Of a stretch of 64,000 nucleotides of DNA, positions 1 through 37,193 are shown one piece after another; the first letter of the stretch is position 1; the number at the start of each line of letters is the position of its first letter. This DNA is from Cyanophora paradoxa CCMP329. Its lineage: Eukaryota > Plantae > Glaucophyta. The DNA lies in the NCBI GenBank assembly GCA_004431415.1, contig QPMI01000567.1, forward strand, positions 6,456-70,455, in the 5' to 3' direction. Made by a program: the position numbers and the translations under genes. The notes beneath the pieces were generated by a model, which was given only the letters and a program-made list of their open reading frames with translations, ran no database searches and had not been told where the DNA came from.

Positions 1-947
1 ATGTATGTTTCAGTGAATGCTAGCATATCTGGGATCTTAGAAGTGTCATCAAGGGAGCTTACTATGTGATTTGGAAGTGGGACTGATAGCCTATAGTATC
101 TCCCATAATCCTGATCATAGTTGTAGGGTAACAACTCCTCCATCTTATCAAGGGCAGAAAGCTCACTTGCAGCCATGAGCATGTTAATCAATGGGCTTCC
201 ATCTGTTGAGGCAATCCATGAGAGAATGCCCCAGCTGTTTACAGTCTCATAAGCATAACCCACATAATCAGACTCTAAATGTGGGTCCACCTCACCACAA
301 GAGATACTTATTACTATAATATCATCATCATCACTGTAAATCTTCTTTGCATGGCTGTAACCACACACACTGGGATTATTGTTTCCCGAAATGGCACCAT
401 CAATGAGACAGACAAATACTCCCCGATTGAAATCAACAATGCTTACAGGAGAGAAATATGTAGGAGCAGCAGAAGTAGCCCTAGCAGCAATCTTACAAGG
501 CATAAAGTTGTAGTTGTTGTCATTTGTGATAAATATTGGTTTCATATTCTGAGTATCAAAGGATGTAATCACAATGTCCTTTAGGGAATCCTGTATTAGT
601 GATTCACCAGTAACTGAATTGATTGCAGTCTCCAAGGGTCCCACATCATACTTTGTATTAAAAAGGGCATTTTCGATTATATTTCGAGGATTTGCGAAAA
701 TCAAGGGCAGTTGAGTTAGGTAAATATTGTGTAAATCGTTTGCTGTCAGTTTAGGTTCACCTGGTTTATCAGGATGCCTGATATTCAAACCTATTGCAAT
801 GATCCCACCAGTGGAAGTTCCACTTACAAGATCCACAAGATCGATTATTCTCCTGCCAGTTCGATTTTCGATTTCTTTTAGCAGCCTGGTTATGATAATG
901 CCCCTTGCACCTCCCCCTGATAAAGACAGGCAGATTTTCAAGGGCAT
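1..947 (-). CDS. Patatin-like phospholipase (3'-partial, runs off the left edge)
   Basis: Manual translation from ATG 947: MPLKICLSLSGGGARGIII (oxyanion motif), DLVSGTSTGGIIA (GxSxG nucleophile), ATSAAPTYF, LIDGAISGNNNP (catalytic Asp), SLDDTS near the C-terminus. Confidence 0.93.
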   Translation of the reverse strand, partial: MPLKICLSLSGGGARGIIITRLLKEIENRTGRRIIDLVDLVSGTSTGGIIAIGLNIRHPDKPGEPKLTANDLHNIYLTQLPLIFANPRNIIENALFNTKYDVGPLETAINSVTGESLIQDSLKDIVITSFDTQNMKPIFITNDNNYNFMPCKIAARATSAAPTYFSPVSIVDFNRGVFVCLIDGAISGNNNPSVCGYSHAKKIYSDDDDIIVISISCGEVDPHLESDYVGYAYETVNSWGILSWIASTDGSPLINMLMAASELSALDKMEELLPYNYDQDYGRYYRLSVPLPNHIVSSLDDTSKIPDMLAFTETY

Positions 948-990
948 CTTTTACTTATCAGGAATTTTATAAATCCATATAGTAAAAGCC
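948..990. promoter_or_regulatory. Candidate bidirectional viral promoter with AGTAAAAG on both strands
   Basis: 43-bp divergent gap; CTTTTACT at 948-955 (AGTAAAAG on the minus strand, abutting the patatin ATG) and AGTAAAAG at 981-988; the same 8-mer occurs at 7221-7228. Confidence 0.5.
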
Positions 991-3900
991 ATGAGCTTCA
1001 ATTACCCACCCAATCTAGAAACCATTCAAGATGATAATGCAAGCAGCACCAAGCATGTGAACTTTGATAATATTAAAGTAAAGGGTTCAGTTTCAATTGA
1101 CCACAGTTCCGATAATTCATCCAAGACTCAATCAAGGGAGCATGCTTTATCTGTGAATCAAACTGATCCAAATAAAGAAGATGTCAGTGTTGCTTTTAGT
1201 TTGGGTAATGTGAAAGCCAACCAAGTAGCAGAGATCAAAGCAACAAGAAGGAGACCTAGGAAACTGAAAACCAGTGGCACTCACCCAGATATACCTTCCA
1301 GGTTCGATAGTGGTCGATTGATTTTCAATGTTCAAGATGAGCAGGGCAAACAGAACACAGCTTTGCGAATTTACAATGAGGGCAGCACTGCAAAAGCTGA
1401 GGTCCCCCAAGTTTTGCAAGTTGGTCCTATTGCCAATACAAATCAGGTCTCCTACACAAATGATGTATACCCTAAGGATATTACATATGACTTTGCGAGG
1501 AATGAGCCTTTTGGTTTCTTTACTCCAAAAGATGTCCATCAAAAAAAGCCATCAATTACAATCAACAGTAGCCCCAGTCAACCAGTAGCAATCCATTTAC
1601 ATCCTGATTTAGTCGAAATGGATAGGCACCTTTTGCCTTTGTATAGCAATGTGAAAGACCTTGGAATTCGAACCAGGCAATGGCGAAATATCCATGGCAG
1701 CAATGTGTATGCAAATGGTGAGAAGCTTGTAAGTGAGAAGACCATAAGAGAGATCTTTGAGTATTATGGACCTGTCCCAGTTCCCTTCCCTCTTCCATGG
1801 GATCCACCGGATTTAACACCGAAAAAGCAACCAGGCAGAGAGTACACAGCAACTGAAGATGTAGCCTTTGGGCAGCATATTGTGAGTTGGGAGCAAGTTC
1901 GCAATAAACCTATAATTGAACCCAGAAAGCAAATAGATGAGCAGTATTTACCTCCTGAAGTCGATATATTAGAGCTTGATGAATATCAATTCGTTCCAGA
2001 TGAGGAAGAGTATTTACCAGATGGTTTCGACCCACAAGAGTATGAATATGATCAATATGACCCCAATGAGGAGGAGATACTACCAGATGGCTTAGATCCA
2101 CAAGAGTTTGAGTATGAGCAGAACTATGAACCTGATGAGGAGTATTTGCCAGATGGGCATGATCCACCAGCTGTTGATTATGAGCAACCTTATGAACCCC
2201 ATGAGGAACTATTACCAGATGGATTTCGCCCAGAGATTTGGGAATTCTTCCCTGATTGGGAGCAGATCAACAATAAACCAGCCAGATATCCACCAGAGGA
2301 TCACAACCATGACTGGGATGAGATCTTAGGCAAACCTCAAAAGTATCCACCAGAGGATCACAGGCATGATTGGGGTGATCTGGATGGGATACCAGATAAG
2401 TTTGCAGCAAGCAACCATGAACACACTTGGGATGAGATCAATGACCAACCAGAATTCGCAAAGGTAGAGCCTCTTGATAACTTGGGGGTTTCTCTTTATC
2501 AGACTTGTAATGTCCCTGAAAGAATCTTTTTGAATGAACACTATGTTCATGTGAATGGGACACTTGCGAATTCAGCTATGAGAGGACCACTTCATATTAG
2601 GACACTACCAGGCTCTTATAATCCACCACCTGAACCAGGAGCAACCATACCAAATATCTTTGTGTCAAGCTACATGGAGGCTGACATTCCCACAGATACA
2701 TTCAGAGTCCCAACAGACCCAGCAACCTACCAAAATTTCAACTCTGCTATACAGGTTCATGTAGCAGATGTAAGCAGTTTAGATGGCTCAAGACCAATGA
2801 TAGTATTCAGCAGAGATAAATATTCGTATATTCCCATAGTGGGAACTGCAAATGATAATTATGGGAGGGCAGAGCTTGCATGGATTAAAACCGATTATGG
2901 TGGGGTCCTGGAAGCCAATCAGAGGATGGCAGCAAAAAACATACACAATGAAAATATTTCGAGAGTAGTCACAGAGGATTATTTAGAAGAGCAAGGATAT
3001 ATTGATGAAGGTGAACTCACAAATATTCTTTCTCTTTTTGTGATCAAAAATGACACAAACCTTACAGTCACTTCCAATATCTACACCAGTAACCTTTATA
3101 CAAGTAACATTTTCACAAGTAACCTATGGGCAAGTAACATTTGGACAAGAAAACTATGGGCAGATGATATTTACACAAGTAATCTTACAGTGTATCGAAA
3201 TATAACAATTGGAACACAAAACACTATACAAATACTTTATAGACCTTACTATGCTGTTACTACTGTCATTGATCCAGCCCCAATTATTCCAAATTGTATA
3301 TTTGCATGGAAAGCATCAGGTCAACATGGTCAGTTGATATATTATCAAGGTCAGATATATAACAGAGTTACTACACAGATACCATATCTAACAAATTATT
3401 CGAATTGGGAAACTGTTTATTATTATTTGAATGCAACCCTAAACAATCAAATTTCGATTGGGAAAGAATTAAACATGGCTTATAGGAATAGTGTTTCAAT
3501 AGATTGGTCATTAGGTCTTACATTATTCTTTATAGGTAGGATCAATACTACAAATCCTTCTTATATGTTGAGTATAAGGGATAGTTCTTATCAAAATTGG
3601 ATTGGATATGGTTGTAAAAATCAAAAGTTTGGTGTTTCACTACAAATTCAAAACGATATAGAAAATGCAACTCCTCCATTATTCGATGCATCATATATTT
3701 ATAATTCGTGGAATTATTGGGATTTCACTGTTTCCTCAGAGCAAATTGTCGTAGGAATGGGTGGTATTGATATTGGAACATCATCGGGTGATTTTCTTCC
3801 ACCTTCTAATTTTGCATCATTTGGTTCTTCTGTTGCTAATGGAGATCTTGCCGAAATTATCGTTTTCAATCGTGCGTTATCTATTGAAGAAAAGAACGCG

Positions 3901-6885
3901 GTTAGATATTATATACAATTATTGTATGGATTTCCAAATACGCAGCCCATATTGAATAATGAAGATCTTAAAATTAATTCGAGCAATATATTTATTGAAA
4001 ATCTCACAGTTACCAAAAATGCAACTCTACCACATCATCCAACATCGAATGTTGTTTTAGATTGGTTAGCAAAACAAAAACACACAAAAGCAGATATTAC
4101 GGATTTCGCCCATACTCACACAAAAGATCAAATCACAGATTTCGCCCATACACACACCAAAGATCAAATAACAGATTTCGCACATACTCACACAAAAGAT
4201 CAAATAACAGATTTCGCACATACTCACACAAAAGATCAAATAACAGATTTCGCCCATACTCATTTATGGGAGCATATCACAAATCCTCCGTTAACCTTCC
4301 CACCTGATTCACACACTCATGATTATTCAGAGATTACAAATAGCAACCACAGGCACCCATGGAGCGAAATAGACGAACAGCCAGTTTTTGCCCAATTGAA
4401 TGCAATCGGAAACGTTTTTAATGGAGTCACACTTTACCAATCGAGTAATACACCTGAAAGGCTATTTTTGAATGATCATTATGTTAGTCTCAATGGTTCA
4501 TTTACAGGTCAAGACGGCACACCGATGGTGGGAACTCTTGCAGTAAGATTACCCAGGGATCCAATCGTAAATGGAGTGTATAGTGGCGATTTCAATGTAG
4601 GAGTAAACGATACTTTCCCCAGTATCTATGTTACGAATTATCACCCAGGAGAAATAGGACAAGTAGCGGATTTTTCAGCAGCTATTCAAATTAACGTAAC
4701 AGATCAAAGCGCATATGATGGAGCAAGACCTAAAATAGTATTCACAAGGGAGAAAGTTGTAAACTATCTTCCCGTTGCGGGACAACCCACAGATGATCAC
4801 GGGAAATGTGAGATGGCGTGGATTAAAACGACATCAGGTGGCGCCTTAGAAGTCAATCAAAGAATGGCGGCGAAAAACTTACACAATACAACCCTTTCAG
4901 GTGTCGTTACAGATGATTACCTTACCAATAAAGGATATCTTACCACCGCAGATCTCAGCAGTTATGTAACAGAAACTGAATTAACGACGGCGTTAAATCC
5001 TTACGCAACAGATGCAGAATTAACTACGGCTCTTGCGAATTATTTACCTCTTACAGGTGGAACCGTCACCGGAACCGTTAACGCTACCACTTTACAAATT
5101 GGCGGAACCACAATACCGAAAGGTTACGAATTCGACCAATTAGATACTGTTTCGACAGATAGAAGCGCTAATAATTGGACTGTAACATGGGGAGCGAGAA
5201 CAGGGCAAACAGGGTGTTTTACTACACCAGCAAATGATGAAGATTGCAGCGGTTGTTTTATGCGTTGGATAGTTCCGACAGGTATGAAATCATTTTATAT
5301 TCAGCATTTACCGTGGAGTAGTGGGAGATATTTTGATATCTACGGTCAAACTCTAAATGGGTTTCAGCATTTCTTAAAACGAGTTAATAATTATCAAGCA
5401 ATAGCAACTACCGGAATTCAAGATGGAACACATCCGGCTATTCTCTTTATTTCAATAAATTGTGAGTTTTACAAGTATATTTATGTTCAAGGTCGAAAAG
5501 GTCGCATTCATCTTACGGGGGTTTTCGGTTGGAGTAGACAAAGAGCAACGGATAATGAGGTTGGTATGATCTCTTGGGATAATATATTTAGCAAACCGTC
5601 ATTTTACTCAGCCGCAGACCTTCCACAAACCGCAACATGGGCAACAAATACATGGTTAAAATCAGTAGATGCAGTCGAGCGAATTTGGTTTGGTAATGGC
5701 GATTGCACATATATACGAGGGAGACCGAATGGTGTCGGTGTGTCAATTGAATTTAGAGACTCAGCAGATGGAGCAATTTTAAAGTCTTATAACAATGGTA
5801 ACTTTTGGGTGAAAAACACTATTACAGCACCTACTATTAATGCAACCACCACACTCCAAATAAACGGTAATGATGTCCCAAAGTTTCACACAGTAGATAA
5901 AGCAGTAGGAGGTATTGCATTTAATAGATGTTCTGAGGGTTGGACATGGGCATGGAGTTCAGAATGGGATCCATATTATAATTATGGTTCATATGTTTAT
6001 AATAATCAAACGGATGATCAAACATCTACCGCTTGGATTGACTTCGATATACCCGATGGATACCACACAGGAACAGCATTTTTAACCTATTTACCTTGGA
6101 CTAACTCACGAATTTTTGAAATTTGGGGACTCAATCGACAAGGGAATGAAGTTTTTATTACATCAGTAAATAGTTATCAACCATACAGCACATCTCCTAA
6201 TAGTAACCACAGCGGTTTAAATAATGTTCCTATACATCTCGGTAATCGATTTTTGACTATTCGGATTAGACCAAAGATTGGAAGAGTTCATATTATGGGT
6301 ATAAGTTACATGAAAATTTGGGTTGGACATAGTTATGGAGGTCACACCGGTTATATTCATTGGAATAATGTTTATAGTAAACCAAATATCTTAACAGGGG
6401 CATTGGATCTTTGGTTTAACTCTAATGATGGATATAATCGTATCTATTTTACGAATAATAGCACCACGTATTTTAAAGGAAGAGGAACTTATCCAATAAG
6501 ATTTCGAAATGAATTAGATTCTGATATTTGTTGGATCGATCATGACGGGCGGATGTGGATAAACAATTATTTAACACAAGGAAGTGACAGAAGATACAAA
6601 ACAGATATTAAAAAGATAACCGGCGCTCTTTCAGCAATCGAAAAATTAGAAGGAGTGAGTTTTAAACGAATTGGGAGTGAAAAAGACGGAACAAAATTAG
6701 GTTTAATTGCGCAAGATGTAGAAAAGGTAATACCAGAAATTGTAAGTGTCACAAAAGAAGATGGTTACCTTTCTCTCGAATACACGGGTTTAATTCCAGT
6801 TCTCATTGAAGCTGTGAAGGAGTTGTCCCAAAAATGCAAAGATCTACAGGATCAAATAGACCAAATTAAAAATGTCAAAGTATAA
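991..6885 (+). CDS. Large modular fibre/adhesin protein with C-terminal intramolecular chaperone (peptidase S74)
   Basis: C-terminal SDRRYKTDI...LGLIAQDVEKVIPEIV...LEYTGLIPVLIEAVKEL plus coiled coil; tail-fibre His repeats (HTHTKDQITDF, HxHxWxxIxxKP); TSNxx pentapeptide repeats; LamG/ConA-like end motif GDLAEIIVFNRALS; two internally duplicated domains. Confidence 0.88.
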   Translation: MSFNYPPNLETIQDDNASSTKHVNFDNIKVKGSVSIDHSSDNSSKTQSREHALSVNQTDPNKEDVSVAFSLGNVKANQVAEIKATRRRPRKLKTSGTHPDIPSRFDSGRLIFNVQDEQGKQNTALRIYNEGSTAKAEVPQVLQVGPIANTNQVSYTNDVYPKDITYDFARNEPFGFFTPKDVHQKKPSITINSSPSQPVAIHLHPDLVEMDRHLLPLYSNVKDLGIRTRQWRNIHGSNVYANGEKLVSEKTIREIFEYYGPVPVPFPLPWDPPDLTPKKQPGREYTATEDVAFGQHIVSWEQVRNKPIIEPRKQIDEQYLPPEVDILELDEYQFVPDEEEYLPDGFDPQEYEYDQYDPNEEEILPDGLDPQEFEYEQNYEPDEEYLPDGHDPPAVDYEQPYEPHEELLPDGFRPEIWEFFPDWEQINNKPARYPPEDHNHDWDEILGKPQKYPPEDHRHDWGDLDGIPDKFAASNHEHTWDEINDQPEFAKVEPLDNLGVSLYQTCNVPERIFLNEHYVHVNGTLANSAMRGPLHIRTLPGSYNPPPEPGATIPNIFVSSYMEADIPTDTFRVPTDPATYQNFNSAIQVHVADVSSLDGSRPMIVFSRDKYSYIPIVGTANDNYGRAELAWIKTDYGGVLEANQRMAAKNIHNENISRVVTEDYLEEQGYIDEGELTNILSLFVIKNDTNLTVTSNIYTSNLYTSNIFTSNLWASNIWTRKLWADDIYTSNLTVYRNITIGTQNTIQILYRPYYAVTTVIDPAPIIPNCIFAWKASGQHGQLIYYQGQIYNRVTTQIPYLTNYSNWETVYYYLNATLNNQISIGKELNMAYRNSVSIDWSLGLTLFFIGRINTTNPSYMLSIRDSSYQNWIGYGCKNQKFGVSLQIQNDIENATPPLFDASYIYNSWNYWDFTVSSEQIVVGMGGIDIGTSSGDFLPPSNFASFGSSVANGDLAEIIVFNRALSIEEKNAVRYYIQLLYGFPNTQPILNNEDLKINSSNIFIENLTVTKNATLPHHPTSNVVLDWLAKQKHTKADITDFAHTHTKDQITDFAHTHTKDQITDFAHTHTKDQITDFAHTHTKDQITDFAHTHLWEHITNPPLTFPPDSHTHDYSEITNSNHRHPWSEIDEQPVFAQLNAIGNVFNGVTLYQSSNTPERLFLNDHYVSLNGSFTGQDGTPMVGTLAVRLPRDPIVNGVYSGDFNVGVNDTFPSIYVTNYHPGEIGQVADFSAAIQINVTDQSAYDGARPKIVFTREKVVNYLPVAGQPTDDHGKCEMAWIKTTSGGALEVNQRMAAKNLHNTTLSGVVTDDYLTNKGYLTTADLSSYVTETELTTALNPYATDAELTTALANYLPLTGGTVTGTVNATTLQIGGTTIPKGYEFDQLDTVSTDRSANNWTVTWGARTGQTGCFTTPANDEDCSGCFMRWIVPTGMKSFYIQHLPWSSGRYFDIYGQTLNGFQHFLKRVNNYQAIATTGIQDGTHPAILFISINCEFYKYIYVQGRKGRIHLTGVFGWSRQRATDNEVGMISWDNIFSKPSFYSAADLPQTATWATNTWLKSVDAVERIWFGNGDCTYIRGRPNGVGVSIEFRDSADGAILKSYNNGNFWVKNTITAPTINATTTLQINGNDVPKFHTVDKAVGGIAFNRCSEGWTWAWSSEWDPYYNYGSYVYNNQTDDQTSTAWIDFDIPDGYHTGTAFLTYLPWTNSRIFEIWGLNRQGNEVFITSVNSYQPYSTSPNSNHSGLNNVPIHLGNRFLTIRIRPKIGRVHIMGISYMKIWVGHSYGGHTGYIHWNNVYSKPNILTGALDLWFNSNDGYNRIYFTNNSTTYFKGRGTYPIRFRNELDSDICWIDHDGRMWINNYLTQGSDRRYKTDIKKITGALSAIEKLEGVSFKRIGSEKDGTKLGLIAQDVEKVIPEIVSVTKEDGYLSLEYTGLIPVLIEAVKELSQKCKDLQDQIDQIKNVKV
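1940..2450 (+). repeat. Acidic ~20-aa coding repeats (EEYLPDGxDP) followed by HxHxWxxI repeats
   Basis: Visible in the translation of the fibre ORF. Confidence 0.85.
4080..4265 (+). repeat. 33-bp coding tandem repeat (HTHTKDQITDFA-type, ~5 copies)
   Basis: cacacaaaagatcaaataacagatttcgc-type unit repeated in frame. Confidence 0.92.
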
Positions 6886-6888
6886 TAA

Positions 6889-7194
6889 ATGGCGACCTAT
6901 CCTCTTGGTGGAACCACCTATTCTACTGAGCCTGTTGCGCTTTCTTTTGATACAATCACCCTTGTAAACGCATTACAAACAGTTGAAAAAACGATTCAGC
7001 AAACTAACAAGCTCTCACCAGTTGTCAATGAGTATAAAAACCTCTTGGTTAATGTCCTTGCCAAATCTGCATATGGTGACCCTGTTGCTAAATACACTGA
7101 GTGTGATAACAATATTAAAGCAATGACATCCAACCTTCAAACACTTTCAGTTGCCTACCAATCCCTTGGATCGAATTTAATCACTTTGGCTTGA
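6889..7194 (+). CDS. Hypothetical 101-aa helical viral protein
   Basis: ATG 3 nt after the fibre stop; same strand; amphipathic, heptad-like composition. Confidence 0.7.
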   Translation: MATYPLGGTTYSTEPVALSFDTITLVNALQTVEKTIQQTNKLSPVVNEYKNLLVNVLAKSAYGDPVAKYTECDNNIKAMTSNLQTLSVAYQSLGSNLITLA

Positions 7195-7233
7195 TTGCAG
7201 TTTATTTTTCTTTCCTTCTTAGTAAAAGAAGCA

Positions 7234-8088
7234 ATGGGTGAATATAATCGAGTTCAACTGCCTATATATTCCCTTGGATCCCCTGCAATGCATTTTCGCC
7301 AGCATGAAGTAAATGATGAGGTTCGTGGTTTAGAATCCACAGAGAGACCCAATTCCAATGGCAACTCCTTTGATAAAAATTCGATTATTCGAGTTAAAGA
7401 GCTGAGAGCTGATAAGAATTCTGGTGTGGTTAAAACAACTCGACTTCTTGTCACAAATGCTAACTTCTTTCAGCCTACTAATGGAGGTCCTGATGCTTAC
7501 AGTGTTGATCTGAAAGCCCTTGATTATGATAAAAACACTGCTGCTGTAACTGTGAGATCAGGAGGAGCATTTATTGGTGGTGGCTGCAGAGTTTCAGGTC
7601 AGCTATCTTCATCTGTTTCCTACAATGATGTCCCAGATACTCTCGAACAAAATGTGGAGAACCCACAACGAATTCGTTTCTACACACCTGTTGCACAGCA
7701 ACCTTTTTTGCATTTCTATGTTGCATCCTCTGTAACTCTTGAGAATTCGGAATTAGTTTCCATTACAGGAACTGATCGAGTAAGAAGAAATATTCCTCTT
7801 CCCACTGCAATGCTTTCCATGTGTAGAGCCAATAATAATCAACCAGGACACAACTACTTATTCTTTGTTCAAGCTTCGAACCATTTTGGCAGAGGATATT
7901 GTGTTTATAACAATTTGACATTTACCTATGATCTGTTTGTCACTGAGGTTGGAGTATACAATACTATGATTATGGGACTGAGAACAGATATAGCAGCTGT
8001 ATCAGCACTTCGTGGGGTAAATGTTGCTGATATATTCACAACAGGATTTTACCAAGAATTAGATGTAATTGATGACCCAACCCCATAA
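7234..8088 (+). CDS. Short fibre-like viral protein, paralog 1 (start corrected to ATG 7234)
   Basis: Clear paralogy with the next ORF (EVRGLESTE...ELRADKNSGVVKTTRLLVTNANF...SGGAFIGGG); preceded by AGTAAAAG. The fibre-like call is inference. Confidence 0.75.
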   Translation: MGEYNRVQLPIYSLGSPAMHFRQHEVNDEVRGLESTERPNSNGNSFDKNSIIRVKELRADKNSGVVKTTRLLVTNANFFQPTNGGPDAYSVDLKALDYDKNTAAVTVRSGGAFIGGGCRVSGQLSSSVSYNDVPDTLEQNVENPQRIRFYTPVAQQPFLHFYVASSVTLENSELVSITGTDRVRRNIPLPTAMLSMCRANNNQPGHNYLFFVQASNHFGRGYCVYNNLTFTYDLFVTEVGVYNTMIMGLRTDIAAVSALRGVNVADIFTTGFYQELDVIDDPTP

Positions 8089-8111
8089 AAGATATATCCC
8101 TTTAATGTAAA

Positions 8112-8945
8112 ATGGCTGAGCAACCCCCACTTGAACGAATTATTACACCTCAGCTATCATTAGCTGCACCAGCAAACCATGTTCTGCAGCATGCTACTTT
8201 TGATGATGTAGAGGGTCTCCAATCAACAGAGGTCCAACCTACAATGAACACCTTTGGTTCCACCCATAAACTGAGATTACAGGAACTCAGATGTGATAAA
8301 AATAATGGAATAGTTAAGACAACTAAGCTACTTGTTACCAATGCAAACTTTTCTGCTCATTATGGAGACCCAGATAGCTATGGAGATCCTCTTTCTACTT
8401 ATTCTTTTGAATCTAGGTCGGGAGCTATTAACTGCAAATCGGGGGGAGCTTATATTGGTGATGGTCTTAGGGTTGGTGGGGCTGTTGGAGCGCCTTTATT
8501 TGTGAATGATCAACCCAATCCCATTGATCCCAATACAAGAATTCGAACCTATGTCCCCAGCATGAATGCCCCCTATATAATCAAAATATTCCCCATTGTA
8601 GTAAATGAACAGACAGCAGTAGTAGATTCTCTTGTTGAGATTGGTGACCACTACAAGGTTGTTGTGGATATTCCACCAGATGTATATGCTGTATGTCAAG
8701 TGGAGGGTGGAACTCCTAATTTTGCAGTTGTGATCACCCCATATGATAATTTTGGTATTGCTTATCATGGAGTCAATTTCGGTTTGGAAGACTATCAGTT
8801 TCTGGTTAGAGCCACCAAGTTTGGTATCTACAAGTGTGTATTATATGCTGAGAGAACCGATTTTATTGCAAAGCAGAATACCTATGCTGAATACTATGGG
8901 ACAAATCGATATTTCCCCATTTTTGGGCAGGATACTGCTCCATAA
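8112..8945 (+). CDS. Short fibre-like viral protein, paralog 2
   Basis: DVEGLQSTE...ELRCDKNNGIVKTTKLLVTNANF...SGGAYIGDG; C-terminal VxIP..V.ITP...FG..Y...F.V...AERTD pattern resembles C-terminal modules of tail-fibre-associated proteins. Confidence 0.75.
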   Translation: MAEQPPLERIITPQLSLAAPANHVLQHATFDDVEGLQSTEVQPTMNTFGSTHKLRLQELRCDKNNGIVKTTKLLVTNANFSAHYGDPDSYGDPLSTYSFESRSGAINCKSGGAYIGDGLRVGGAVGAPLFVNDQPNPIDPNTRIRTYVPSMNAPYIIKIFPIVVNEQTAVVDSLVEIGDHYKVVVDIPPDVYAVCQVEGGTPNFAVVITPYDNFGIAYHGVNFGLEDYQFLVRATKFGIYKCVLYAERTDFIAKQNTYAEYYGTNRYFPIFGQDTAP

Positions 8946-8967
8946 GAATATTGGTTATATATAGAGT

Positions 8968-9240: not shown

Positions 9241-9269
9241 GTTTAATTAATTTTTCTAAGGTATTCTTA

Positions 9270-9668
9270 ATGGAGACTCAATACAGAGGCTTTCATGTTA
9301 TGCTTGATTACAAGGCTAAATCAGCTATTGCAACAGGACATGAGCATGTTAGCTTCCTAGGTAATTGGATTATGGGAACCCTTGAACAAGCTATATTAAG
9401 ACAAGGCATAAGAATTGTTCATAAACACTGTGAGATATTTGATGGGAAACTATCACCTCCTGGATTTGCATTGGTTCTGCTATTAGATGAAAGCCATTGC
9501 ACAGCTCATTGTTATTCCAATGAAGGCATGTTAGCAATTGATATATTCAGTTGTGGTAAAGAAGCTCAGCATAAAACACAAGCAGTAGCAGATGAGATAG
9601 ATAAAACAATGAATTTCCTCACATTTGAGAAGACTGAGAGAAATAAACATGAAAGATTCCCGTTTTGA
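9270..9668 (+). CDS. speD: S-adenosylmethionine decarboxylase proenzyme, short prokaryotic type (pyruvoyl-dependent)
   Basis: G.H...D N-terminus, P.G....LL.ESH autocleavage site, H after ESH, A.DIFSCG catalytic Cys; 132 aa. Confidence 0.88.
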   Translation: METQYRGFHVMLDYKAKSAIATGHEHVSFLGNWIMGTLEQAILRQGIRIVHKHCEIFDGKLSPPGFALVLLLDESHCTAHCYSNEGMLAIDIFSCGKEAQHKTQAVADEIDKTMNFLTFEKTERNKHERFPF

Positions 9669-9954
9669 TGAGTTTCTATAATGATTTGTTAAAGGATTCC
9701 TTTGTTTTCTAACAATAACATTGATCAGCTACTGTTACAAAAGGATATAATATATCCATTTCCTACAGTAGCTTTCTACAATGATTATTTTCCGGATTCC
9801 GGTTATTGTTTACAGTAGAAATCTAATGTATGATGTAGCCGAAATATGAATGCACCCTACACCTTCAGGTGTAAGATTTCGAATACTATTCGATTTCCTT
9901 ACACTAAAACTCAGCATCTGCCCTAGATTCCCCCTATTATATAATATTTATATT

Positions 9955-10395
9955 AAAGTGGACTCAAGGTTGACTCATATTAATCGTAAAAGTAGTAATA
10001 GTATATGGATTTTGTTACGAATTCAATGCAAGGGTTGACTAAGTGGGTTGAGTTGACTCAAATTTCACAGGAAATATTTGGGACCTAAAGTTTTCTAAAA
10101 AGGATTTCAAAAAATGTGTCAACTCCCCCCACTTAGTCAACCCTGACCATAAACAGTAAGGATTTGAGCTAACATGTATCACAAAGTGAACATTTTGAGT
10201 CCACTTAGAAGATCCACTTTTGAAATCCAAGTTGATTTTGCTTGAAATTTCAAAGTTGATCTAAAAGTGAGTCCACCCTGATTGATTATGGTAACAAAGT
10301 TGACTAAGTTGACTAAGTTGAGTCATCTTAAGAAATTCAAAGAGACTAAGAGTTCAAAATGTTTATGAAAAGTGAGTCAACTTAGACCACTTCTG
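9955..10395. repeat. Subterminal array 1: AAGT(T/G)GACT(A/C)-type motifs in both orientations
   Basis: More than ten GTTGACT/AGTCAAC/GTGGACTC/GAGTCCAC variants; perfect 17-bp inverted pair AGGGTTGACTAAGTGGG (~10031) and CCCACTTAGTCAACCCT (~10128). Confidence 0.8.
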
Positions 10396-10419
10396 ATAAC
10401 AAAGTTAAATATTTAATTG

Positions 10420-10669
10420 ATTTAATCGGAAAAGAACATGATTTAATCGAATTTATTGATATAATTCCGATTAGATTCATTTAGGATTCAATTAAGATCA
10501 ATCGAAGTTATTGATATAATTCCGATTAACTACAATTAAGATACAATATCGATTAATCGAGTTTATCGATATAACATCGATTAAATTAATTGAAAATGCA
10601 TATAAAAATATGAAAATTCAGGTGAAAATTCAAATAAATTAATCGATTTTATTGATATAACATCGAATC
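10420..10669. repeat. Subterminal array 2: four ~29-bp direct repeats AATCGAnnTTAT(T/C)GATATAAnnnCGA
   Basis: Copies at ~10445, ~10500, ~10555 and ~10641. Confidence 0.85.
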
Positions 10670-10742
10670 ACACATATGAATATTCATATTTTAATCCTGA
10701 GGCGGAACGCCGAGGGATTAAAATATGAATATTCATATGTGT
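10670..10742. other. Terminal hairpin: 28-bp perfect inverted repeat with inner GGCG-GAA-CGCC mini-hairpin
   Basis: ACACATATGAATATTCATATTTTAATCC (10670-10697) pairs with 10715-10742; each arm contains the 16-bp palindrome ATATGAATATTCATAT. Confidence 0.92.
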
Positions 10743-28930: not shown

Positions 28931-29099
28931 GCCGCCCGATGGTGACCCTGTTGCTAAATACACTGAGTGTGATAACAATATTAAAGCAATGACATCCAAC
29001 CTTCAAACACTTTCAGTTGCCTACCAATCCCTTGGATCGAATTTAATCACTTTGGCTTGATTGCAGTTTATTTTTCTTTCCTTCTTAGTAAAAGAAGCA

Positions 29100-29952
29100 A
29101 TGGGTGAATATAATCGAGTTCAACTGCCTATATATTCCCTTGGATCCCCTGCAATGCATTTTCGCCAGCATGAAGTAAATGATGAGGTTCGTGGTTTAGA
29201 ATCCACAGAGAGACCCAATTCCAATGGCAACTCCTTTGATAAAAATTCGATTATTCGAGTTAAAGAGCTGAGAGCTGATAAGAATTCTGGTGTGGTTAAA
29301 ACAACTCGACTTCTTGTCACAAATGCTAACTTCTTTCAGCCTACTAATGGAGGTCCTGATGCTTACAGTGTTGATCTGAAAGCCCTTGATTATGATAAAA
29401 CACTGCTGCTGTAACTGTGAGATCAGGAGGAGCATTTATTGGTGGTGGCTGCAGAGTTTCAGGTCAGCTATCTTCATCTGTTTCCTACAATGATGTCCCA
29501 GATACTCTCGAACAAAATGTGGAGAACCCACAACGAATTCGTTTCTACACACCTGTTGCACAGCAACCTTTTTTGCATTTCTATGTTGCATCCTCTGTAA
29601 CTCTTGAGAATTCGGAATTAGTTTCCATTACAGGAACTGATCGAGTAAGAAGAAATATTCCTCTTCCACTGCAATGCTTTCCATGTGTAGAGCCAATAAT
29701 AATCAACCAGGACACAACTACTTATTCTTTGTTCAAGCTTCGAACCATTTTGGCAGAGGATATTGTGTTTATAACAATTTGACATTTACCTATGATCTGT
29801 TTGTCACTGAGGTTGGAGTATACAATACTATGATTATGGGACTGAGAACAGATATAGCAGCTGTATCAGCACTTCGTGGGGTAAATGTTGCTGATATATT
29901 CACAACAGGATTTTACCAAGAATTAGATGTAATTGATGACCCAACCCCATAA
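29100..29952 (+). pseudogene. Frameshifted copy of fibre-like paralog 1
   Basis: Matches 7234-8088 with 1-bp deletions near 29400 and 29665 (probably consensus errors). Confidence 0.8.
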
Positions 29953-29975
29953 AAGATATATCCCTTTAATGTAAA

Positions 29976-30808
29976 ATGGCTGAGCAACCCCCACTTGAAC
30001 GAATTATTACACCTCAGCTATCATTAGCTGCACCAGCAAACCATGTTCTGCAGCATGCTACTTTTGATGATGTAGAGGGTCTCCAATCAACAGAGGTCCA
30101 ACCTACAATGAACACCTTTGGTTCCACCCATAAACTGAGATTACAGGAACTCAGATGTGATAAAAATAATGGAATAGTTAAGACAACTAAGCTACTTGTT
30201 ACCAATGCAAACTTTTCTGCTCATTATGGAGACCCAGATAGCTATGGAGATCCTCTTTCTACTTATTCTTTTGAATCTAGGTCGGGAGCTATTAACTGCA
30301 AATCGGGGGAGCTTATATTGGTGATGGTCTTAGGGTTGGTGGGGCTGTTGGAGCGCCTTTATTTGTGAATGATCAACCCAATCCCATTGATCCCAATACA
30401 AGAATTCGAACCTATGTCCCCAGCATGAATGCCCCCTATATAATCAAAATATTCCCCATTGTAGTAAATGAACAGACAGCAGTAGTAGATTCTCTTGTTG
30501 AGATTGGTGACCACTACAAGGTTGTTGTGGATATTCCACCAGATGTATATGCTGTATGTCAAGTGGAGGGTGGAACTCCTAATTTTGCAGTTGTGATCAC
30601 CCCATATGATAATTTTGGTATTGCTTATCATGGAGTCAATTTCGGTTTGGAAGACTATCAGTTTCTGGTTAGAGCCACCAAGTTTGGTATCTACAAGTGT
30701 GTATTATATGCTGAGAGAACCGATTTTATTGCAAAGCAGAATACCTATGCTGAATACTATGGGACAAATCGATATTTCCCCATTTTTGGGCAGGATACTG
30801 CTCCATAA
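29976..30808 (+). pseudogene. Frameshifted copy of fibre-like paralog 2
   Basis: Matches 8112-8945 with one G lost from a G run near 30305. Confidence 0.8.
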
Positions 30809-30830
30809 GAATATTGGTTATATATAGAGT

Positions 30831-31101
30831 ATGGATAGTAAAACAAAAAGTTTATTGATGCTGCTATGACAGTTCATGGTAAAGATAAATTCGATTACAG
30901 TGAGACACATTACATCAAAGCTCAAGAGAAAGTATCTGTTAGATGTTTGCAGTGTAATAAGGTGATCCTTACCTATCCCTTTAATCATGTGAAGGGATCA
31001 GGTTGCAGGGAATGCAACAAAAAACATTCTCAGGCTTACAGGAAAAGGGCTTCTTCATCAATCACAGTGGAATATAGGATGTTTGCATTAGGTTCGATTA
31101 G
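30831..31101 (+). pseudogene. Frameshifted copy of the DUF723-like gene
   Basis: Matches 8968-9240 with homopolymer deletions. Confidence 0.75.
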
Positions 31102-31130
31102 GTTTAATTAATTTTTCTAAGGTATTCTTA

Positions 31131-31529
31131 ATGGAGACTCAATACAGAGGCTTTCATGTTATGCTTGATTACAAGGCTAAATCAGCTATTGCAACAGGAC
31201 ATGAGCATGTTAGCTTCCTAGGTAATTGGATTATGGGAACCCTTGAACAAGCTATATTAAGACAAGGCATAAGAATTGTTCATAAACACTGTGAGATATT
31301 TGATGGGAAACTATCACCTCCTGGATTTGCATTGGTTCTGCTATTAGATGAAAGCCATTGCACAGCTCATTGTTATTCCAATGAAGGCATGTTAGCAATT
31401 GATATATTCAGTTGTGGTAAAGAAGCTCAGCATAAAACACAAGCAGTAGCAGATGAGATAGATAAAACAATGAATTTCCTCACATTTGAGAAGACTGAGA
31501 GAAATAAACATGAAAGATTCCCGTTTTGA
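31131..31529 (+). CDS. speD: AdoMet decarboxylase, second identical copy
   Basis: Translation identical to 9270-9668. Confidence 0.85.
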   Translation: METQYRGFHVMLDYKAKSAIATGHEHVSFLGNWIMGTLEQAILRQGIRIVHKHCEIFDGKLSPPGFALVLLLDESHCTAHCYSNEGMLAIDIFSCGKEAQHKTQAVADEIDKTMNFLTFEKTERNKHERFPF

Positions 31530-32527
31530 TGAGTTTCTATAATGATTTGTTAAAGGATTCCTTTGTTTTCTAACAATAACATTGATCAGCTACTGTTACA
31601 AAAGGATATAATATATCCATTTCCTACAGTAGCTTTCTACAATGATTATTTTCCGGATTCCGGTTATTGTTTACAGTAGAAATCTAATGTATGATGTAGC
31701 CGAAATATGAATGCACCCTACACCTTCAGGTGTAAGATTTCGAATACTATTCGATTTCCTTACACTAAAACTCAGCATCTGCCCTAGATTCCCCTATTAT
31801 ATAATATTTATATTAAAGTGGACTCAAGGTTGACTCATATTAATCGTAAAAGTAGTAATAGTATATGGATTTTGTTACGAATTCAATGCAAGGGTTGACT
31901 AAGTGGGTTGAGTTGACTCAAATTTCACAGGAAATATTTGGGACCTAAAGTTTCTAAAAAGGATTTCAAAAAATGTGTCAACTCCCCCACTTAGTCAACC
32001 CTGACCATAAACAGTAAGGATTTGAGCTAACATGTATCACAAAGTGAACATTTTGAGTCCACTTAGAAGATCCACTTTTGAAATCCAAGTTGATTTTGCT
32101 TGAAATTTCAAAGTTGATCTAAAAGTGAGTCCACCCTGATTGATTATGGTAACAAAGTTGACTAAGTTGACTAAGTTGAGTCATCTTAAGAAATTCAAAG
32201 AGACTAAGAGTTCAAAATGTTTATGAAAAGTGAGTCAACTTAGACCACTTCTGATAACAAAGTTAAATATTTAATTGATTTAATCGGAAAAGAACATGAT
32301 TTAATCGAATTTATTGATATAATTCCGATTAGATTCATTTAGGATTCAATTAAGATCAATCGAAGTTATTGATATAATTCCGATTAACTACAATTAAGAT
32401 ACAATATCGATTAATCGAGTTTATCGATATAACATCGATTAAATTAATTGAAAATGCATATAAAAATATGAAAATTCAGGTGAAAATTCAAATAAATTAA
32501 TCGATTTTATTGATATAACATCGAATC

Positions 32528-32600
32528 ACACATATGAATATTCATATTTTAATCCTGAGGCGGAACGCCGAGGGATTAAAATATGAATATTCATATGTGT
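32528..32600. other. Second copy of the viral terminal hairpin
   Basis: Same sequence as 10670-10742. Confidence 0.9.
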
Positions 32601-32623
32601 ATAGTGTTATAAAATATCCGAAC

Positions 32624-35600
32624 CGAGACGGCGCCGGTCTTCGCGGCGACGGGGCGACCGAAGCGAAGAACGTGACGAGCGAGCCAGCGGTCTGACGGGA
32701 TCGGAGGCGGGCTCGAATTCAGAGCCGTTGCGTGGAAGAGGTTTTTATATTGAGCACCTTGGCATCAGCGAGGTTCACGCCAGACTTCGTGGCCTCCTGG
32801 TTAACGACCTGCAGTAAAAGGCTGCATTCAGACTGCGAAAGAGACCGAATAAAACGACGCTGGAATTCAAGGGCGGACGTTCATGACGTTGGTGAGGGCG
32901 CCGGAGAGGGACGAGAGGATGTCACTGCTGGCCCGGTGGTCTGACGCAGGGCGCGCCGCAGGCGCAGCTTCACGCCGGACGCGCTGCTGTAGTAGGACTT
33001 CAGCGTCTCGACCAGGGCGAGGATCTTCTGCAGCTTAGTCTCGAACGCGTCGTTGCTCTGCCGCAGGGCGTCAAGGTACGATCGCGGGCGAAGAAACCAC
33101 TGGCTGATCATGAAAGTGTCTGAAACGCGGACCTGGGTGATCGCCGTCATCTGCGAATTGAACGTGTCGACGACGCTCTGCGATGCGTGAGCAAAGTCAG
33201 ATGACAATGCAAGAGAACGGATGCTTTCGAATTTAAGAGTGAAGCACCTTGAAAGCGGCCACGGCGTCCGCGGAGGTGTTCGTGGAGACCAACGGCTTCA
33301 CCTCCACCGCAGTGGTGATGGGAAGGAGGCGGTCAGCCCCTTCGTGTCCTTGACGACGACCGTGAGCTTGGCGTCTTCGTCGTGCCGTCGTTCTGCAACA
33401 CGAAATTCATTTCCGTGCCTTGAGTGCATTAATTCTATCTAGATCTATCGAGGAAGACGCACAGAAGGAAGAAGAAGTCGATGGTCGGCGTGGTAGAGTC
33501 GATCGCGAGCGGCGAAGCGAAGATGTCGGCGCGGACGGTGTACCTGCATCAGATATTAATGTGTGCGAAAAGCTGCAGCTGACGTGCGCGTGAATGTCGA
33601 GGTCGGGCTGCTCACACGAGGGGGGTAGAAGCGGACTGCCAGCCAGAGCACGTCACCTGCGGGCAGAGTTTCAAGTTTAATTTGAACTCGTCGTGAATGT
33701 AAAGCTTGAGGCTAACTCACCGTGACCTTGTCGAGGGCCGCCTGGGCGGAGAGCGGGGAGACCGAGCACGAGCCTCCAGTGGGAGGAGAGCTGGAATCGA
33801 CCGGGCCCGGGGTCGTGACGTCGACGACGGGGGTCGGTGTGGGCTCGGGCTCGGGCGCCGGGGTCGGAGACGGCGTGGGCGTGGGGGACGGCGAAGGCGT
33901 CTGCGACGGGGTCGGTGACGGGCTGGGCGTCTGGCTGGGCGTCGGCGTCGGCGGCCGAGTCGGCTGCGGTGCGAGCGGCCCAGTAAAGACTGCCGCGAAG
34001 GTGCAGCCATCAGCACTCGCGCGCGCGCGAGGGTAATATCTGATCAACAGAGCGGTGACCACGCACGGCGCATTCCCCAAGCCTCGGGCCGCACCCACGC
34101 CGCCGGGCTCGTCAGAGCCGGGCAGGTGGTCGCAAAGCCGGTGGCCGAGTAGGTATAGGGGGTGAAGATGAAGTCGTCGTCGCTCTCGTCCGCCGTTCCC
34201 TTATCATCGAGGCTTTCCGCCTCGACCACCCTCGACAGCGTTTTTGCTGTGCAGGTCCGCGTGGTGTCAATTCGCCGGCTTCGGTAGCCTCCAACCACGT
34301 ATCTGCAACGTGCCGGGTGCATTGTGAGCGTGGCTTGCGCAAACAAAGAAAAGTATGTTACAAAACGCGCACATGTTGCAGTCACCGTCGTACGCACTCG
34401 CCCCGAACGCCAAGAGGGGGCGCTTCCGATGAGCACTTGTGAGCGCAGTGCTCGTCAGCGCCGCCTGCGAGGTGGCCTTATCGTTGATGAAGTCAGTGCC
34501 CGCCGTCCAGGTGACCGCCTTGTCCGTCGTGCCGAAGGTCATCTGGCCGGGGGACGGGAAGCTGGTGTCCAGGTACACCATGCTCGACGGGGCCGTCTTG
34601 AGGTTGGTCACGTTGCTGGCTGTGATCGCCGATTTCGCAATTAATTGCAAGGCAAACAGCGGAAACGGTATTCACGCAAGCGTATATAGTTATGAAATAC
34701 AGTCTAGTCTACTACAACCCGCAACGCACTCTGTGGATCGTAAACCGCAACGGTTGCGTCTCCGGTCCATCGCCCCTCTTTGAACATAGTCTCGTTGTAA
34801 TATACTCCGGACCACCCGCTGAAAGAGACGAGGCTGTACATGAAGAGCTTGTTGTTGCAAATCCCAACAAACGGCGCTTCAAGGGCCGCTGCGTAAGTGT
34901 CATCGACTTCTGTTAGCTCTACTCCTGCCGCCGCAGCTTCGCTTGATGTCAACGTTTTCGTTTCCGATGGCCTGGGCCAGACGTCAAAGTGCTCTGACAT
35001 GTTCCGAGCTTGCAAGTCGATGACACTGCAATGCATACCCGGGGCCGTCACGCAAATGAAATGAAAGGATGTAAATATAATCAAGAACAGCTCAAACAAA
35101 TTTGCGCACAAGAGGGTGTTCATTGCTGAAGACGCGACGTAACCATCGAATGCATCTTTCGTTTCGACCCCGCCAACGACGTACCAGTTCTTCCCTGTGA
35201 TAATGGTGCGCATGCGTTGGCCGTCTTTTGCGCACAGCAAAAAGCAGCATCGCACCGTCGCGAGCGCAGCTCATGAAGGCGTTCTTCCGAATTTTATTGC
35301 CCAATGTGTCCTGGTTCAGTGTCCCAGCGTCATCATATTCCGGCGGGTTGGGAAAATCGAGAATCGTCTCCCACGTGCCGTTCGTGATGTTGTACCTGCA
35401 CAATTTCGGTACCGTTATGAATCTTCAGAAACGTTTGCAGTAATCGATAAGCACCGCGCGCACCGGTAAATGTTGATATTTGCGCCGGAGTTCCCATCCG
35501 GAAGCCCATACACCCCGCCCACAATCTATGAGGTGCGAAAATTGACTTCAATATAAAAAACTTGTAAGCAGTATGACTATAATAGATAATTGTACCCAGA

Positions 35601-36623
35601 CGCCATCTTCGAAGACAGTCATGCACGCGCCGTAGACCCACCGTTCGGAATGGGCGCGAGCTCGGTGATCGTTCCCAGGCTGGTGTCCACGCTGTAGAAC
35701 TTGTCGGAGGAGAGCGGATACTGGGGAACCTTCGCCGAATTTTCATCGTTCGAATCCAACAGATCGTACTTGAAGCCCGAGACGCCGCCGCCGCAGTAGA
35801 TCCTGCTGGACTCGCCGACGACCTCGTCCCAGGCGCAGTGCGACCAGATCGTTGCGTTCGGCGCAGTGAGCGGCGCCTTCGTGAACGACCAGACCGAGAT
35901 AGGGCCGCCGCCTGCGTTTTCCCGACATCATGATTAGCTGGTTACATAAACAGCCGCATCATAGCTATCTCCAAAGACTTCTGCGCAGAAACGAACGCAT
36001 CGAAGAACAAACGCACTGATATCTGCGGACCAGAAGTCGTCTAGCAGCGCTGAAGTGACAGCCTGCATAGTTGTCACTCCCGCAACGCTCTTGTGCTTCC
36101 ATATCTGGTCATAAAAGATTGCTCCATCGGGTTGCGGGTTTGGTACTTGGACACTGTCGTAAGGTCGCCACTCCTCGAACGCGTCTCCGCTGCCGCCCTT
36201 CTGGCCGCCGTGGATGAGCATCCGGGCGTTGCCCGAGGGGTCCTTGTAGTACACGCTGGCCGCCCCGCCCGCTTGAGCGTCGGGTTGGCGGTGGCCGCCT
36301 GGTTGAGGCCGTCATTGTACAGCGTGCGGATGTGGTACTCGGCTGCCGCAGTGCGTAGCGCGTTAGCGCGCATGCGGAGCTCGAGATCTAGAGGCCGCAT
36401 CGTGCATGTTTATTATGCGTATTCAAGCCCGGAAGGCCATGATCATGAGGGCACACTCAGGTCGGGAAAGCCGCGCGCTACACCTATATATCCCATGGCC
36501 AGCAGCGTGCGCACCTGACACGCCGGAGAAGGCGGCGGCCAGGAGCGCGATTGCAAGCGCCAGGAGCGCGCCTGTGCCTGCGGCCGGACTCCCACGACGC
36601 ATCGTTATCTTCAACTTAGCCAT
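32624..36623 (-). pseudogene. Duplicate of the kelch-like host gene with indels
   Basis: Colinear with 10766-14773; several 1-bp deletions. Confidence 0.65.
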
Positions 36624-36932
36624 ATATCCGTGGCCGCCAGGCGTCTAGAGCTAGACTCTAGATCTAGTACAGCCGCTGAACTGCGAACTGCTGCTGGCCC
36701 AGTGCATGCGCAGCCTGCTGCTGCTCCTGAGCTCAAGATCTCAGAGTCTGTGAGGCTGTGTGCCACAGACTGGCTCACAGTGAGCAGGTCCGACGGTCAG
36801 AGCGACCGTTGCAAAAAGCGTTATTTTTTGTCCCATATCAGAGAAGCTGATACTTCAAATACTCCATCGCCAACCTCTAGAATAGAAACTGAAATAGTAG
36901 ACTCAGTTGTACTAGGCCCCGTAACTAGGGTA

Positions 36933-37193
36933 CCGTAGAGCAGGAAAATAGTGGGCCGGAAATTAGTGGACTAGAAAACTTGGCCCTCCCTTAGGCAAAA
37001 TACTGGAGCCCGAAATTAGTGGACCAAAACCTTCTCAGGCTTGTATGGGGCGGTAATTTTGGGGGGTACTGTATGGGGCAGCCTAGCAGCAGGGAAATAC
37101 TGGAGCCCGAAATTAGTGGACTGAGTCAAGTTTTCGGTCCACTAATTTCGGGCTCCACTAATTTTCTGCGTCCAGTATTTTCCTGCTCTACGG
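36933..37193. mobile_element. Second copy of the MITE
   Basis: Same TIRs and TA flanks as 15084-15344. Confidence 0.85.

What the first reader, a model, noticed from the sequence alone, without database searches (positions are those of the whole stretch)
3870..6975. Distal half of the fibre gene lacks the CpG signature, suggesting a recently swapped receptor-binding cassette
From ~3870 ACGC, GCGG, CCGT, ACGG and GCGT become common and stay so until ~6970, inside the 101-aa ORF, after which avoidance resumes. The block starts near the end of the LamG-like domain and the HTHTKDQITDF repeats and covers duplicated domain A2, both tip domains and S74. Inference: in-frame module exchange from a donor not under the same pressure, analogous to phage tail-fibre swapping that changes host range.
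Basis: partly seen in the sequence, partly recalled or inferred. Interest (0 to 1): 0.8.

Follow-up and report, generated by a model that had tools for sequence, protein, structure and literature searches.

The report
Recombined fibre tip in algal provirus
In a small DNA virus inserted in many copies in a likely algal genome, the outer half of the attachment-fibre gene keeps the CG sites that the rest of the virus has lost, likely because it was recombined in from a sister virus lineage with a different methylation history, so the CG pattern could be used to map such exchanges.

Summary
Confirmed. VCGB ([ACG]CG[CGT]) is at 0.02-0.04 of expectation in the flanks and 1.02 in the block (2dLL 108; maximum 24 in 300 simulations). 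Refined edges: about 3650 (3455-3850) and about 6990 (6955-7140). The DNA is the right end of an AT-rich, multi-copy endogenous virus, probably polinton-like, in a GC-rich host. Earlier AI notes name the host as Cyanophora; I did not test this. Public runs show sister copies with homologous modules (down to about 82% identical) that mostly lack the window's CGs: 8 of 14 listed C>T/G>A differences hit CG. A few sister copies are CG-rich. Contigs in three runs bridge the left edge; depth steps up 2.4-3.8-fold at the right edge. Block and flanks share GTAC/GGCC/CTAG avoidance, so the donor is likely a sister lineage, not a foreign cassette, and more than one event is likely. Tip B1 is predicted to be a carbohydrate-binding-type beta-sandwich. 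A host-range change is untested. The cause of CG loss (host 5mC or helper-virus enzymes) is open. Earlier scan notes report mosaic viruses in this genome but no CpG block.

The parts
3653..6992 (.). CG-normal block (best edges; left 95% about 3455-3850, right about 6955-7140)
991..6885 (+). 1964-aa fibre-like gene, intact ORF
   Evidence: Peptidase_S74 57.8 bits; PHROG tail-fibre hits
2260..3000 (+). H-repeat set 1 and domain A1 (CG-depleted paralog of A2)
   Evidence: 0 VCGB against 17 expected; 47% aa identity to A2
3082..3182 (+). TSNxxTSN shaft repeats (15/30-bp period)
3235..3960 (+). weakly LamG-like domain that holds the left edge; absent from some sister copies
   Evidence: joints 3112>4018 and 3141>4027, low depth, and contigs 3154/3556-4071 with 0-1 differences
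4081..4262 (+). HTHTKDQITDF repeats (36-bp period, 5.1 copies), PTR-like
   Evidence: PF12789 19.7 bits, below cut-off
4381..4950 (+). domain A2 (CG-normal paralog of A1)
   Evidence: 12 VCGB against 12.0 expected; A1 has TG/CA opposite 7 of 11 aligned VCGB CGs
5122..5640 (+). tip domain B1, predicted CBM-like beta-sandwich
   Evidence: (pLDDT 77); sister alleles with 47 differences in 268 bases
5878..6414 (+). tip domain B2, paralog of B1
   Evidence: 23% identity, E 4e-16
6583..6744 (+). Peptidase_S74 intramolecular chaperone (aa 1865-1918)
6889..7194 (+). 101-aa ORF that holds the right edge
   Evidence: depth step
3..947 (-). patatin-like phospholipase, runs off the window, CG-depleted
7195..8088 (+). 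297-aa ORF (first ATG at 7237), paralog of the 277-aa ORF, CG-depleted
8112..8945 (+). 277-aa ORF, two relatives at 63-64% identity
8968..9240 (+). 90-aa zinc-finger-like ORF resembling parts of phage endonucleases
   Evidence: (below cut-off)
9270..9668 (+). S-adenosylmethionine decarboxylase
10031..10742 (.). AT-rich terminal region: 9-bp and 55-bp repeats and a 73-nt palindrome (10670-10742) just before GC-rich host DNA
   Evidence: (z -11)
28939..38324 (+). 99.8% copy of 7073-16477 (element end plus host flank) inside a 2.6-kb tandem array

Best explanation
The window holds the right end of a multi-copy endogenous DNA virus whose fibre gene is likely a recombinant: about 3.3 kb, from the middle of the LamG-like domain into the next ORF, keeps its CG sites and likely came by homologous recombination from a sister lineage that had not undergone the CG loss seen in the rest of this copy. 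Shown: the step in CG use, the intact frame, homologous but different alleles in other copies, and contigs across the left edge. Inferred: (1) the backbone lineage lost CG in every context except TCGA over many replication rounds, most likely through 5-methylcytosine placed on integrated copies by a host enzyme that disfavours TCG/CGA, followed by C>T change or selection against silencing; (2) a CG-normal sister lineage, present in the same host species, supplied the block in at least two steps, because the left edge is shared by more copies than the tip allele; (3) the exchange is recent on the CG-loss clock, since the block shows no decay; (4) it replaces two predicted glycan-binding tips by homologous variants, which may or may not alter binding.
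For: Step and edges. Sister copies lack the window's CGs: in 4640-5660, 10 of the 40 listed differences (of 145; 105 not shown) remove a CG, 8 of them VCGB; 6 of 14 C>T/G>A rows hit VCGB against 62 of 416 C/G sites (Fisher P 0.0099); each is carried by 57% or more of depth in at least one run. CG-rich sister alleles exist: row 4950 adds a VCGB in the block; the letters at joint 2378>2346 in the N-half hold two VCGB; loose ends in organism B's run at 9486 and 9565 hold VCGB in the AdoMetDC gene. The left edge is bridged by contigs with 0-1 differences in 3 of 3 organism-A runs laid. Depth rises 2.4-3.8-fold at the right edge. The donor is kin: GTAC 1 vs 21 and 0 vs 11 expected, GGCC 0 vs 9 and 0 vs 4, CTAG 6 vs 21 and 0 vs 11, in flanks and block respectively. 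C>T trace: TG+CA 1.32 vs 1.12; T over A before G at four-fold sites OR 3.6 (P 5e-6), against 1.02 before other bases; A1 has TG/CA at 7 of 11 A2 VCGB sites. CG-normal is the default state: 12 of 12 viral loci with the tip domain have VCGB o/e 0.61-1.24. C. paradoxa has DNMT1/DNMT3, 32% mCG and methylated repeats (PMC12344493, section 6).
Against: Host DNA in this window, a Ty3-type retroelement included, has no CG loss (CG 1.17-1.25) and at most a weak TCG preference (OR 0.82-1.23), so passive host deamination alone does not explain the depletion. NCA codons are not raised where NCG was lost (OR 0.64, P 0.057), against symmetric deamination. Three of the 40 rows add a CG, so alleles do not sort cleanly into two classes. 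No listed contig bridges the right edge (tables truncated), and a 99.8% duplicate begins at 7073, inside that edge's interval. Contig depth is not a copy number. Whole sister copies could not be read (no genome held). The host name comes from unchecked AI notes.
Confidence: 0.72

Rival explanations
1. Same recombination, but the CG loss records a helper giant virus's methyltransferase or nuclease with a degenerate VCG/CGB target, not host 5mC. The two lineages would then replicate with different helpers.
For: GTAC, GGCC and CTAG avoidance is restriction-like and largely absent from host DNA, apart from low CTAG in some host segments. The block also tends to avoid RGCY (8 vs 15.6+/-3.1; P 0.006 uncorrected, 1 of 18 motifs). 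Of 12 giant-virus-like loci with the tip domain, 7 avoid TCGA (o/e 0.10-0.26) and 4 lack GGCC (some are near-duplicates). The host retroelement keeps its CGs. R-M as an anti-virophage agent is discussed in PMC7253447 (passages).
Against: All VCGB tetramers are lost together in a graded pattern, with a C>T trace. PMC7253447 found no methylation in the Mimiviridae, virophage and transpovirons it tested. No helper virus was identified here.
Confidence: 0.25
2. The block is a structurally new receptor-binding cassette from an unrelated donor such as a giant virus, taken up in one event, and it changes host range.
For: Tip-domain relatives sit in S74-, collagen- and LamG-bearing proteins of giant-virus-like contigs. 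The fold is CBM-like. Architecture varies between copies (joints).
Against: Those relatives are only 34-47% identical in protein, whereas sister copies are 82% or more identical in DNA. A2 has its paralog A1 in the same gene and no relative among the 153 proteins fetched. Palindrome avoidance is shared. Depth is uneven along the block.
Confidence: 0.1
3. The block is an assembly chimera of two different copies of a multi-copy family.
For: There are many similar copies. The duplicate starts at 7073. The right edge is not bridged by a listed contig.
Against: The left edge lies inside single contigs with 0-1 differences in runs of 2012, 2019 and 2024. Window-identical contigs exist at 4917-5024 and 5288-5487. 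The frame is intact. A collapsed assembly would tend to give majority letters, not minority ones (inference).
Confidence: 0.08
4. No exchange: this part of the gene is locally protected from methylation or constrained to keep CG.
For: Local protection from 5mC inside integrated viruses is described (10.64898/2026.10.09.758095, passages).
Against: Most sister depth lacks the CGs at the listed homologous sites. The paralog A1 has lost them. Codon shuffles exclude protein constraint.
Confidence: 0.05

Closest known systems
Phage-like modular fibre proteins of polinton-like viruses (Bulzu et al. 2025, PMC12220804; passages read)
   Same: Long modular protein with phage-tail-repeat-like units, lectin-type domains and a C-terminal Peptidase_S74. 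Patatin-like phospholipase is reported in glaucophyte PLVs.
   Different: The passages read list architectures across elements; they map no within-gene exchange, and the text has 0 uses of 'CpG'. Domain A and tip B have no Pfam family.
Multi-level mosaicism in Polisuviricotina (Barth, Ha, Aylward, 10.64898/2026.10.13.758929; abstract and one passage read)
   Same: Recombination at module and sub-gene level in small eukaryotic DNA viruses.
   Different: Concerns replicases and morphogenetic modules; 0 hits for 'fiber', 'CpG' or 'Cyanophora'.
Host 5mC on endogenous viral DNA (Sarre et al. 2025, PMC12344493; abstract, passages and section 6 read)
   Same: CG methylation by DNMT1/DNMT3 in C. paradoxa, enriched on repeats and on genes of viral origin.
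   Different: No flanking-base preference or CG loss in viruses in the text seen; supplementary figures not seen.
Bacteriophage tail-fibre tip exchange (recalled, no call)
   Same: Conserved N-terminal anchor, variable distal modules, S74 chaperone carried along with the tip.
   Different: Here the donor is marked by CG use, the allele is homologous, and no change of receptor is shown.

Membership tests
Polinton-like virus (Polisuviricotina) | double jelly-roll major capsid, minor capsid, packaging ATPase | not testable with these tools
   The window starts inside the element and no genome is held; none of the 7 visible ORFs has such a family.
Polinton-like virus (Polisuviricotina) | own replicase and integrase or tyrosine recombinase | not testable with these tools
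   Would lie outside the window.
Polinton-like virus (Polisuviricotina) | terminal inverted repeats | tested here: inconclusive
   One end only: repeats and a 73-nt palindrome at the host junction; the other end is not in view.
Polinton-like virus (Polisuviricotina) | low-GC, multi-copy insertion in a protist genome | tested here: met
   GC about 0.38-0.40 against 0.5-0.8 in the flank; thousands of variant contigs in organism-A runs.
Polinton-like virus (Polisuviricotina) | large modular fibre ending in Peptidase_S74 (common, not diagnostic) | tested here: met
Mriyaviricetes | HUH endonuclease and mriyavirus-type capsid | not testable with these tools
   Not among the visible ORFs; PMC11253617 has 0 hits for patatin, fiber, S74 or decarboxylase.
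Laminin_G_3 domain | Pfam score above cut-off or a concanavalin-like fold | tested here: inconclusive
   No hit, failed model, only a 33-aa C-terminal match.
Carbohydrate-binding module (CBM6/29/32-like) | beta-sandwich fold | tested here: met
   Model pLDDT 77; Foldseek E 1.3e-4, TM 0.39-0.50; Eph ligand-binding domains also match.
Carbohydrate-binding module (CBM6/29/32-like) | glycan binding | not testable with these tools
   Needs an assay.
Programmed fibre switching (invertase or shufflon type; recalled) | recombination repeats flanking the variable cassette and a nearby recombinase | tested here: inconclusive
   Self-comparison shows no repeat pair over 60 bp at the two edges; shorter sites were not searched; no recombinase among the visible ORFs.

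The most novel reading that the evidence does not exclude
One alga carries two lineages of the same endogenous virus family with opposite methylation histories. The TCGA-sparing CG loss is a fossil print of the host methyltransferase's flanking preference, fixed only in viruses that cycle out of the chromosome, and the long-resident lineage refreshes its receptor-binding tips from newly arrived, still CG-rich sister viruses. CG context then paints every exchange and ranks residence time across dozens of copies.
Probability: 0.3. Interest if true: 0.72.

Novelty: new variant of a known kind. Interest (0 to 1): 0.5.

Why it matters
Modular fibres and mosaicism in polinton-like viruses are known. 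A sharp, context-specific CG signature that marks donor and recipient DNA inside one gene was not found in my searches. It gives an alignment-free way to map recombination among endogenous copies and to ask whether fibre tips turn over faster than the rest of the genome. It also makes a sharp prediction about methylation by flanking base that public methylome data could test. Near-total CG loss in a virus whose host DNA keeps its CGs suggests that the virus replicates outside the chromosome or is under selection against silencing.

Tried and rejected
No whole genome is held, so sister copies could be seen only as differences. Relatives of fibre aa 1-960: 0 of 6253 candidates, lengths 1080-3437 only. 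Locus searches that found nothing: 297-aa ORF, patatin, A1/A2 alignment and 277-aa alignment in viral contigs; 277-aa alignment and a domain-A pattern in metagenomes; the same pattern in viral contigs. I first read the 0.63-0.68 word share of 14 runs as the block being absent, since 1-3106/8710 = 0.64; rejected, because contigs cover all 30 bins in the three organism-A runs. No RNA holder was listed, so nothing is said on expression. The single-sequence model of the LamG-like region failed. The protein atlas gave no answer. The PDB sequence search with the tip alignment hit S74-type tails of partner proteins and gave nothing useful on the tip. Amino-acid composition as the cause was rejected. 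The literature search for a TCGA-sparing methyltransferase gave nothing usable (listing only), and the search for restriction-site avoidance in virophages gave 0 papers. Earlier scan notes on a CpG block: none.

Full report
Setting. Bases 1 to about 10750 are AT-rich (GC about 0.38-0.40) and gene-dense. The rest of the window is GC 0.5-0.8, with tandem arrays and a Ty3-type retroelement. The AT-rich part holds a patatin, the 1964-aa fibre gene, a 101-aa ORF, two paralogous ORFs, a zinc-finger-like ORF and an AdoMet decarboxylase. It ends in repeats and a 73-nt palindrome. Public runs of one organism hold thousands of variant contigs on it, so it is a multi-copy family. Earlier AI notes on the same genome name Cyanophora paradoxa and describe polinton-like viruses and mriyaviruses; I did not test the host name. 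S74 fibres, and patatin in glaucophyte PLVs, are described in PMC12220804 (passages). A polinton-like virus is the likely class, but the core genes lie outside the window.

Observation. VCGB occurs once in 1-3869, 54 times in 3870-6975 and twice in 6976-9700 (o/e 0.00-0.02, 1.02, 0.04). The two-edge model gives 2dLL 108 against a maximum of 24 in 300 simulations. Synonymous shuffles give 1 vs 19.2 for aa 1-960 and 52 vs 44.9 for aa 961-1964. Outside the block the loss is graded (VCGB 0.03, half-sites 0.29, TCGA 1.17); inside it is flat. Using all three classes puts the edges at 3653 (about 3455-3850) and 6992 (about 6955-7140). The odds ratio for TCG over VCG is 5.54 in the flanks and 1.01 in the block, so the block shows no decay.

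Anatomy. The gene runs: N-terminal region, acidic repeats, H-repeats 1, A1, TSN shaft, a weakly LamG-like domain, H-repeats 2, A2, tips B1 and B2, S74. A1 and A2 are 47% identical; B1 and B2 are 23% identical. B1, folded with an 18-sequence alignment, reaches pLDDT 77 and matches CBM29, CBM32 and CBM6, and also Eph ligand-binding domains, at TM 0.39-0.50. In the viral library, phage host-specificity and tail proteins rank first. Glycan binding is inferred. Tip relatives are 34-47% identical and lie in 12 viral loci. Neighbours such as XRN1, DUF5767 and an SF2 helicase suggest giant viruses (inference). None of the 12 is VCGB-poor (0.61-1.24), so CG-normal is the default and the depletion is derived. 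The LamG label is inconclusive.

Sister copies. Summed contig depth is high over 1-2936, falls 20-30-fold over 3304-4037, is high over 4038-5138, intermediate over 5139-6973, and steps up 2.4-3.8-fold at about 6974, which is the right edge. Depth is not a copy number and is used only for relative statements. Joints 2403>4359, 2948>4891, 3112>4018 and 3141>4027 (short sides of 25-39 letters) suggest copies with one A domain or without the LamG-like part. Contigs with 0-1 differences cover 3556-4071 (X1), 3154-4071 (X3) and 3154-4040 (X7). They join DNA with 0 VCGB (8.2 expected in 3140-3869) to the four VCGB at 3874-3940, so the left edge is real DNA in three runs. In 4640-5660, 40 of 145 difference rows were shown. 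Ten remove a CG of the window (8 VCGB). Eight of 14 C>T/G>A rows fall in CG, and 6 of 14 in VCGB against 62 of 416 C/G sites (P 0.0099). Three rows add a CG, one of them a VCGB. Twenty-four of the 40 are synonymous. Among the 40 rows shown for the whole 11 kb, 2 remove a CG and none adds one. Window-identical contigs have depth 45 and 95 in X1 and 193 in X3, against 452 and 789 for the left-edge contig, while tip alleles with 47 differences in 268 bases have 430 and 830. The window's tip allele is therefore a minority allele, and the left edge is shared more widely than the tip. Two or more events, or later overwriting, are likely. CG-rich kin also show outside the block: letters at joint 2378>2346 in all three organism-A runs, and loose ends in organism B's run at 9486 and 9565. 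These are short strings and weak evidence alone.

Donor. Block and flanks both lack GTAC, GGCC and CTAG. Host DNA has GTAC and GGCC near expectation, with CTAG low in some segments. With paralog A1 in the same gene and sister alleles at 82% identity and above, the donor is likely a sister lineage of the same family. No long repeat pair flanks the block, so homologous recombination is the simplest route. Both edges fall inside coding DNA that copies share (inference).

Cause of CG loss. For methylation followed by C>T change: TG+CA is 1.32 against 1.12, covering roughly 140 of 177 missing CG; T over A before G has OR 3.6 against 1.02 before other bases; A1 has TG/CA at 7 of 11 aligned A2 VCGB sites; and C. 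paradoxa has 32% mCG with methylated repeats (PMC12344493, section 6). Against: host DNA here keeps its CGs, with at most a weak TCG preference (OR 1.23 in the retroelement, 0.82-1.12 elsewhere); NCA codons are not raised; and restriction-like avoidance is plainly present. I put host 5mC at about 0.6, a helper-virus enzyme at about 0.25 and other causes at about 0.15. Supplementary figure S5 of PMC12344493 and figure S6 and the tables of PMC12220804 were not seen and may bear on context preference and on whether this element is already listed.

Comparison. Modular S74 fibres (PMC12220804) and sub-gene mosaicism (10.64898/2026.10.13.758929, abstract and one passage) are known. Passages of 10.64898/2026.07.28.741278, 10.1101/2025.10.09.676808, 10.64898/2026.10.09.758095 and PMC7253447, and the abstract of PMC11253617, were read; none of what I saw describes a CG-context block. 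Searches listed no such paper; the library lacks most subscription papers.

Verdict. The feature is real and best read as a recombinant allele within a virus family, made visible by an unusually sharp CG signature. The swap is of a known kind; the marker and the CG-poor versus CG-normal kin are the new part. A host-range effect is not shown. Interest 0.5; new variant of a known kind.

Noticed in passing
window 28939-38324: A 99.8% copy of 7073-16477 sits inside a 2.6-kb tandem array. It starts inside the interval of the block's right edge. Real rearrangement or assembly artefact is not decided.
   Followed up: partly
window 9270-9668: The virus end carries an AdoMet decarboxylase with no spermidine synthase in view. 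It might lower the methyl donor and act against methylation (speculation from recalled knowledge, untested).
   Followed up: no
window 1-9700: GTAC occurs once and GGCC never in the element, and GTGC/GCAC and CTAG are low: a restriction-like avoidance that could point to a helper virus's enzymes.
   Followed up: partly
window 10670-10742: 73-nt terminal palindrome with purine-rich mismatches near the tip (z -11), similar in description to the hairpin of note e1-10595593; TCGA is enriched in 9701-10700 (10 vs 2.7 expected).
   Followed up: partly
window 7195-8945: Two paralogous ORFs (33% identity) of no known family; the 277-aa one has two relatives at 63-64% identity.
   Followed up: partly
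window 46200-55724: Ty3-type retroelement on the minus strand (integrase, aspartyl protease), without CG depletion.
   Followed up: partly
window 17477-18849 and 19822-46138: 143-bp tandem array and 2.6-kb GC-rich tandem units at about 99% identity.
   Followed up: no
L001, L002, L004, L009-L012: Giant-virus-like loci with the same tip domain avoid TCGA (o/e 0.10-0.26), the opposite of this element; L009-L012 lack GGCC and L011-L012 lack AGCT.
   Followed up: no
run X15 (organism B) on window 1-11000: A second organism label holds relatives of the element in 20 of 30 bins, some with CG at sites where the window has none.
   Followed up: partly
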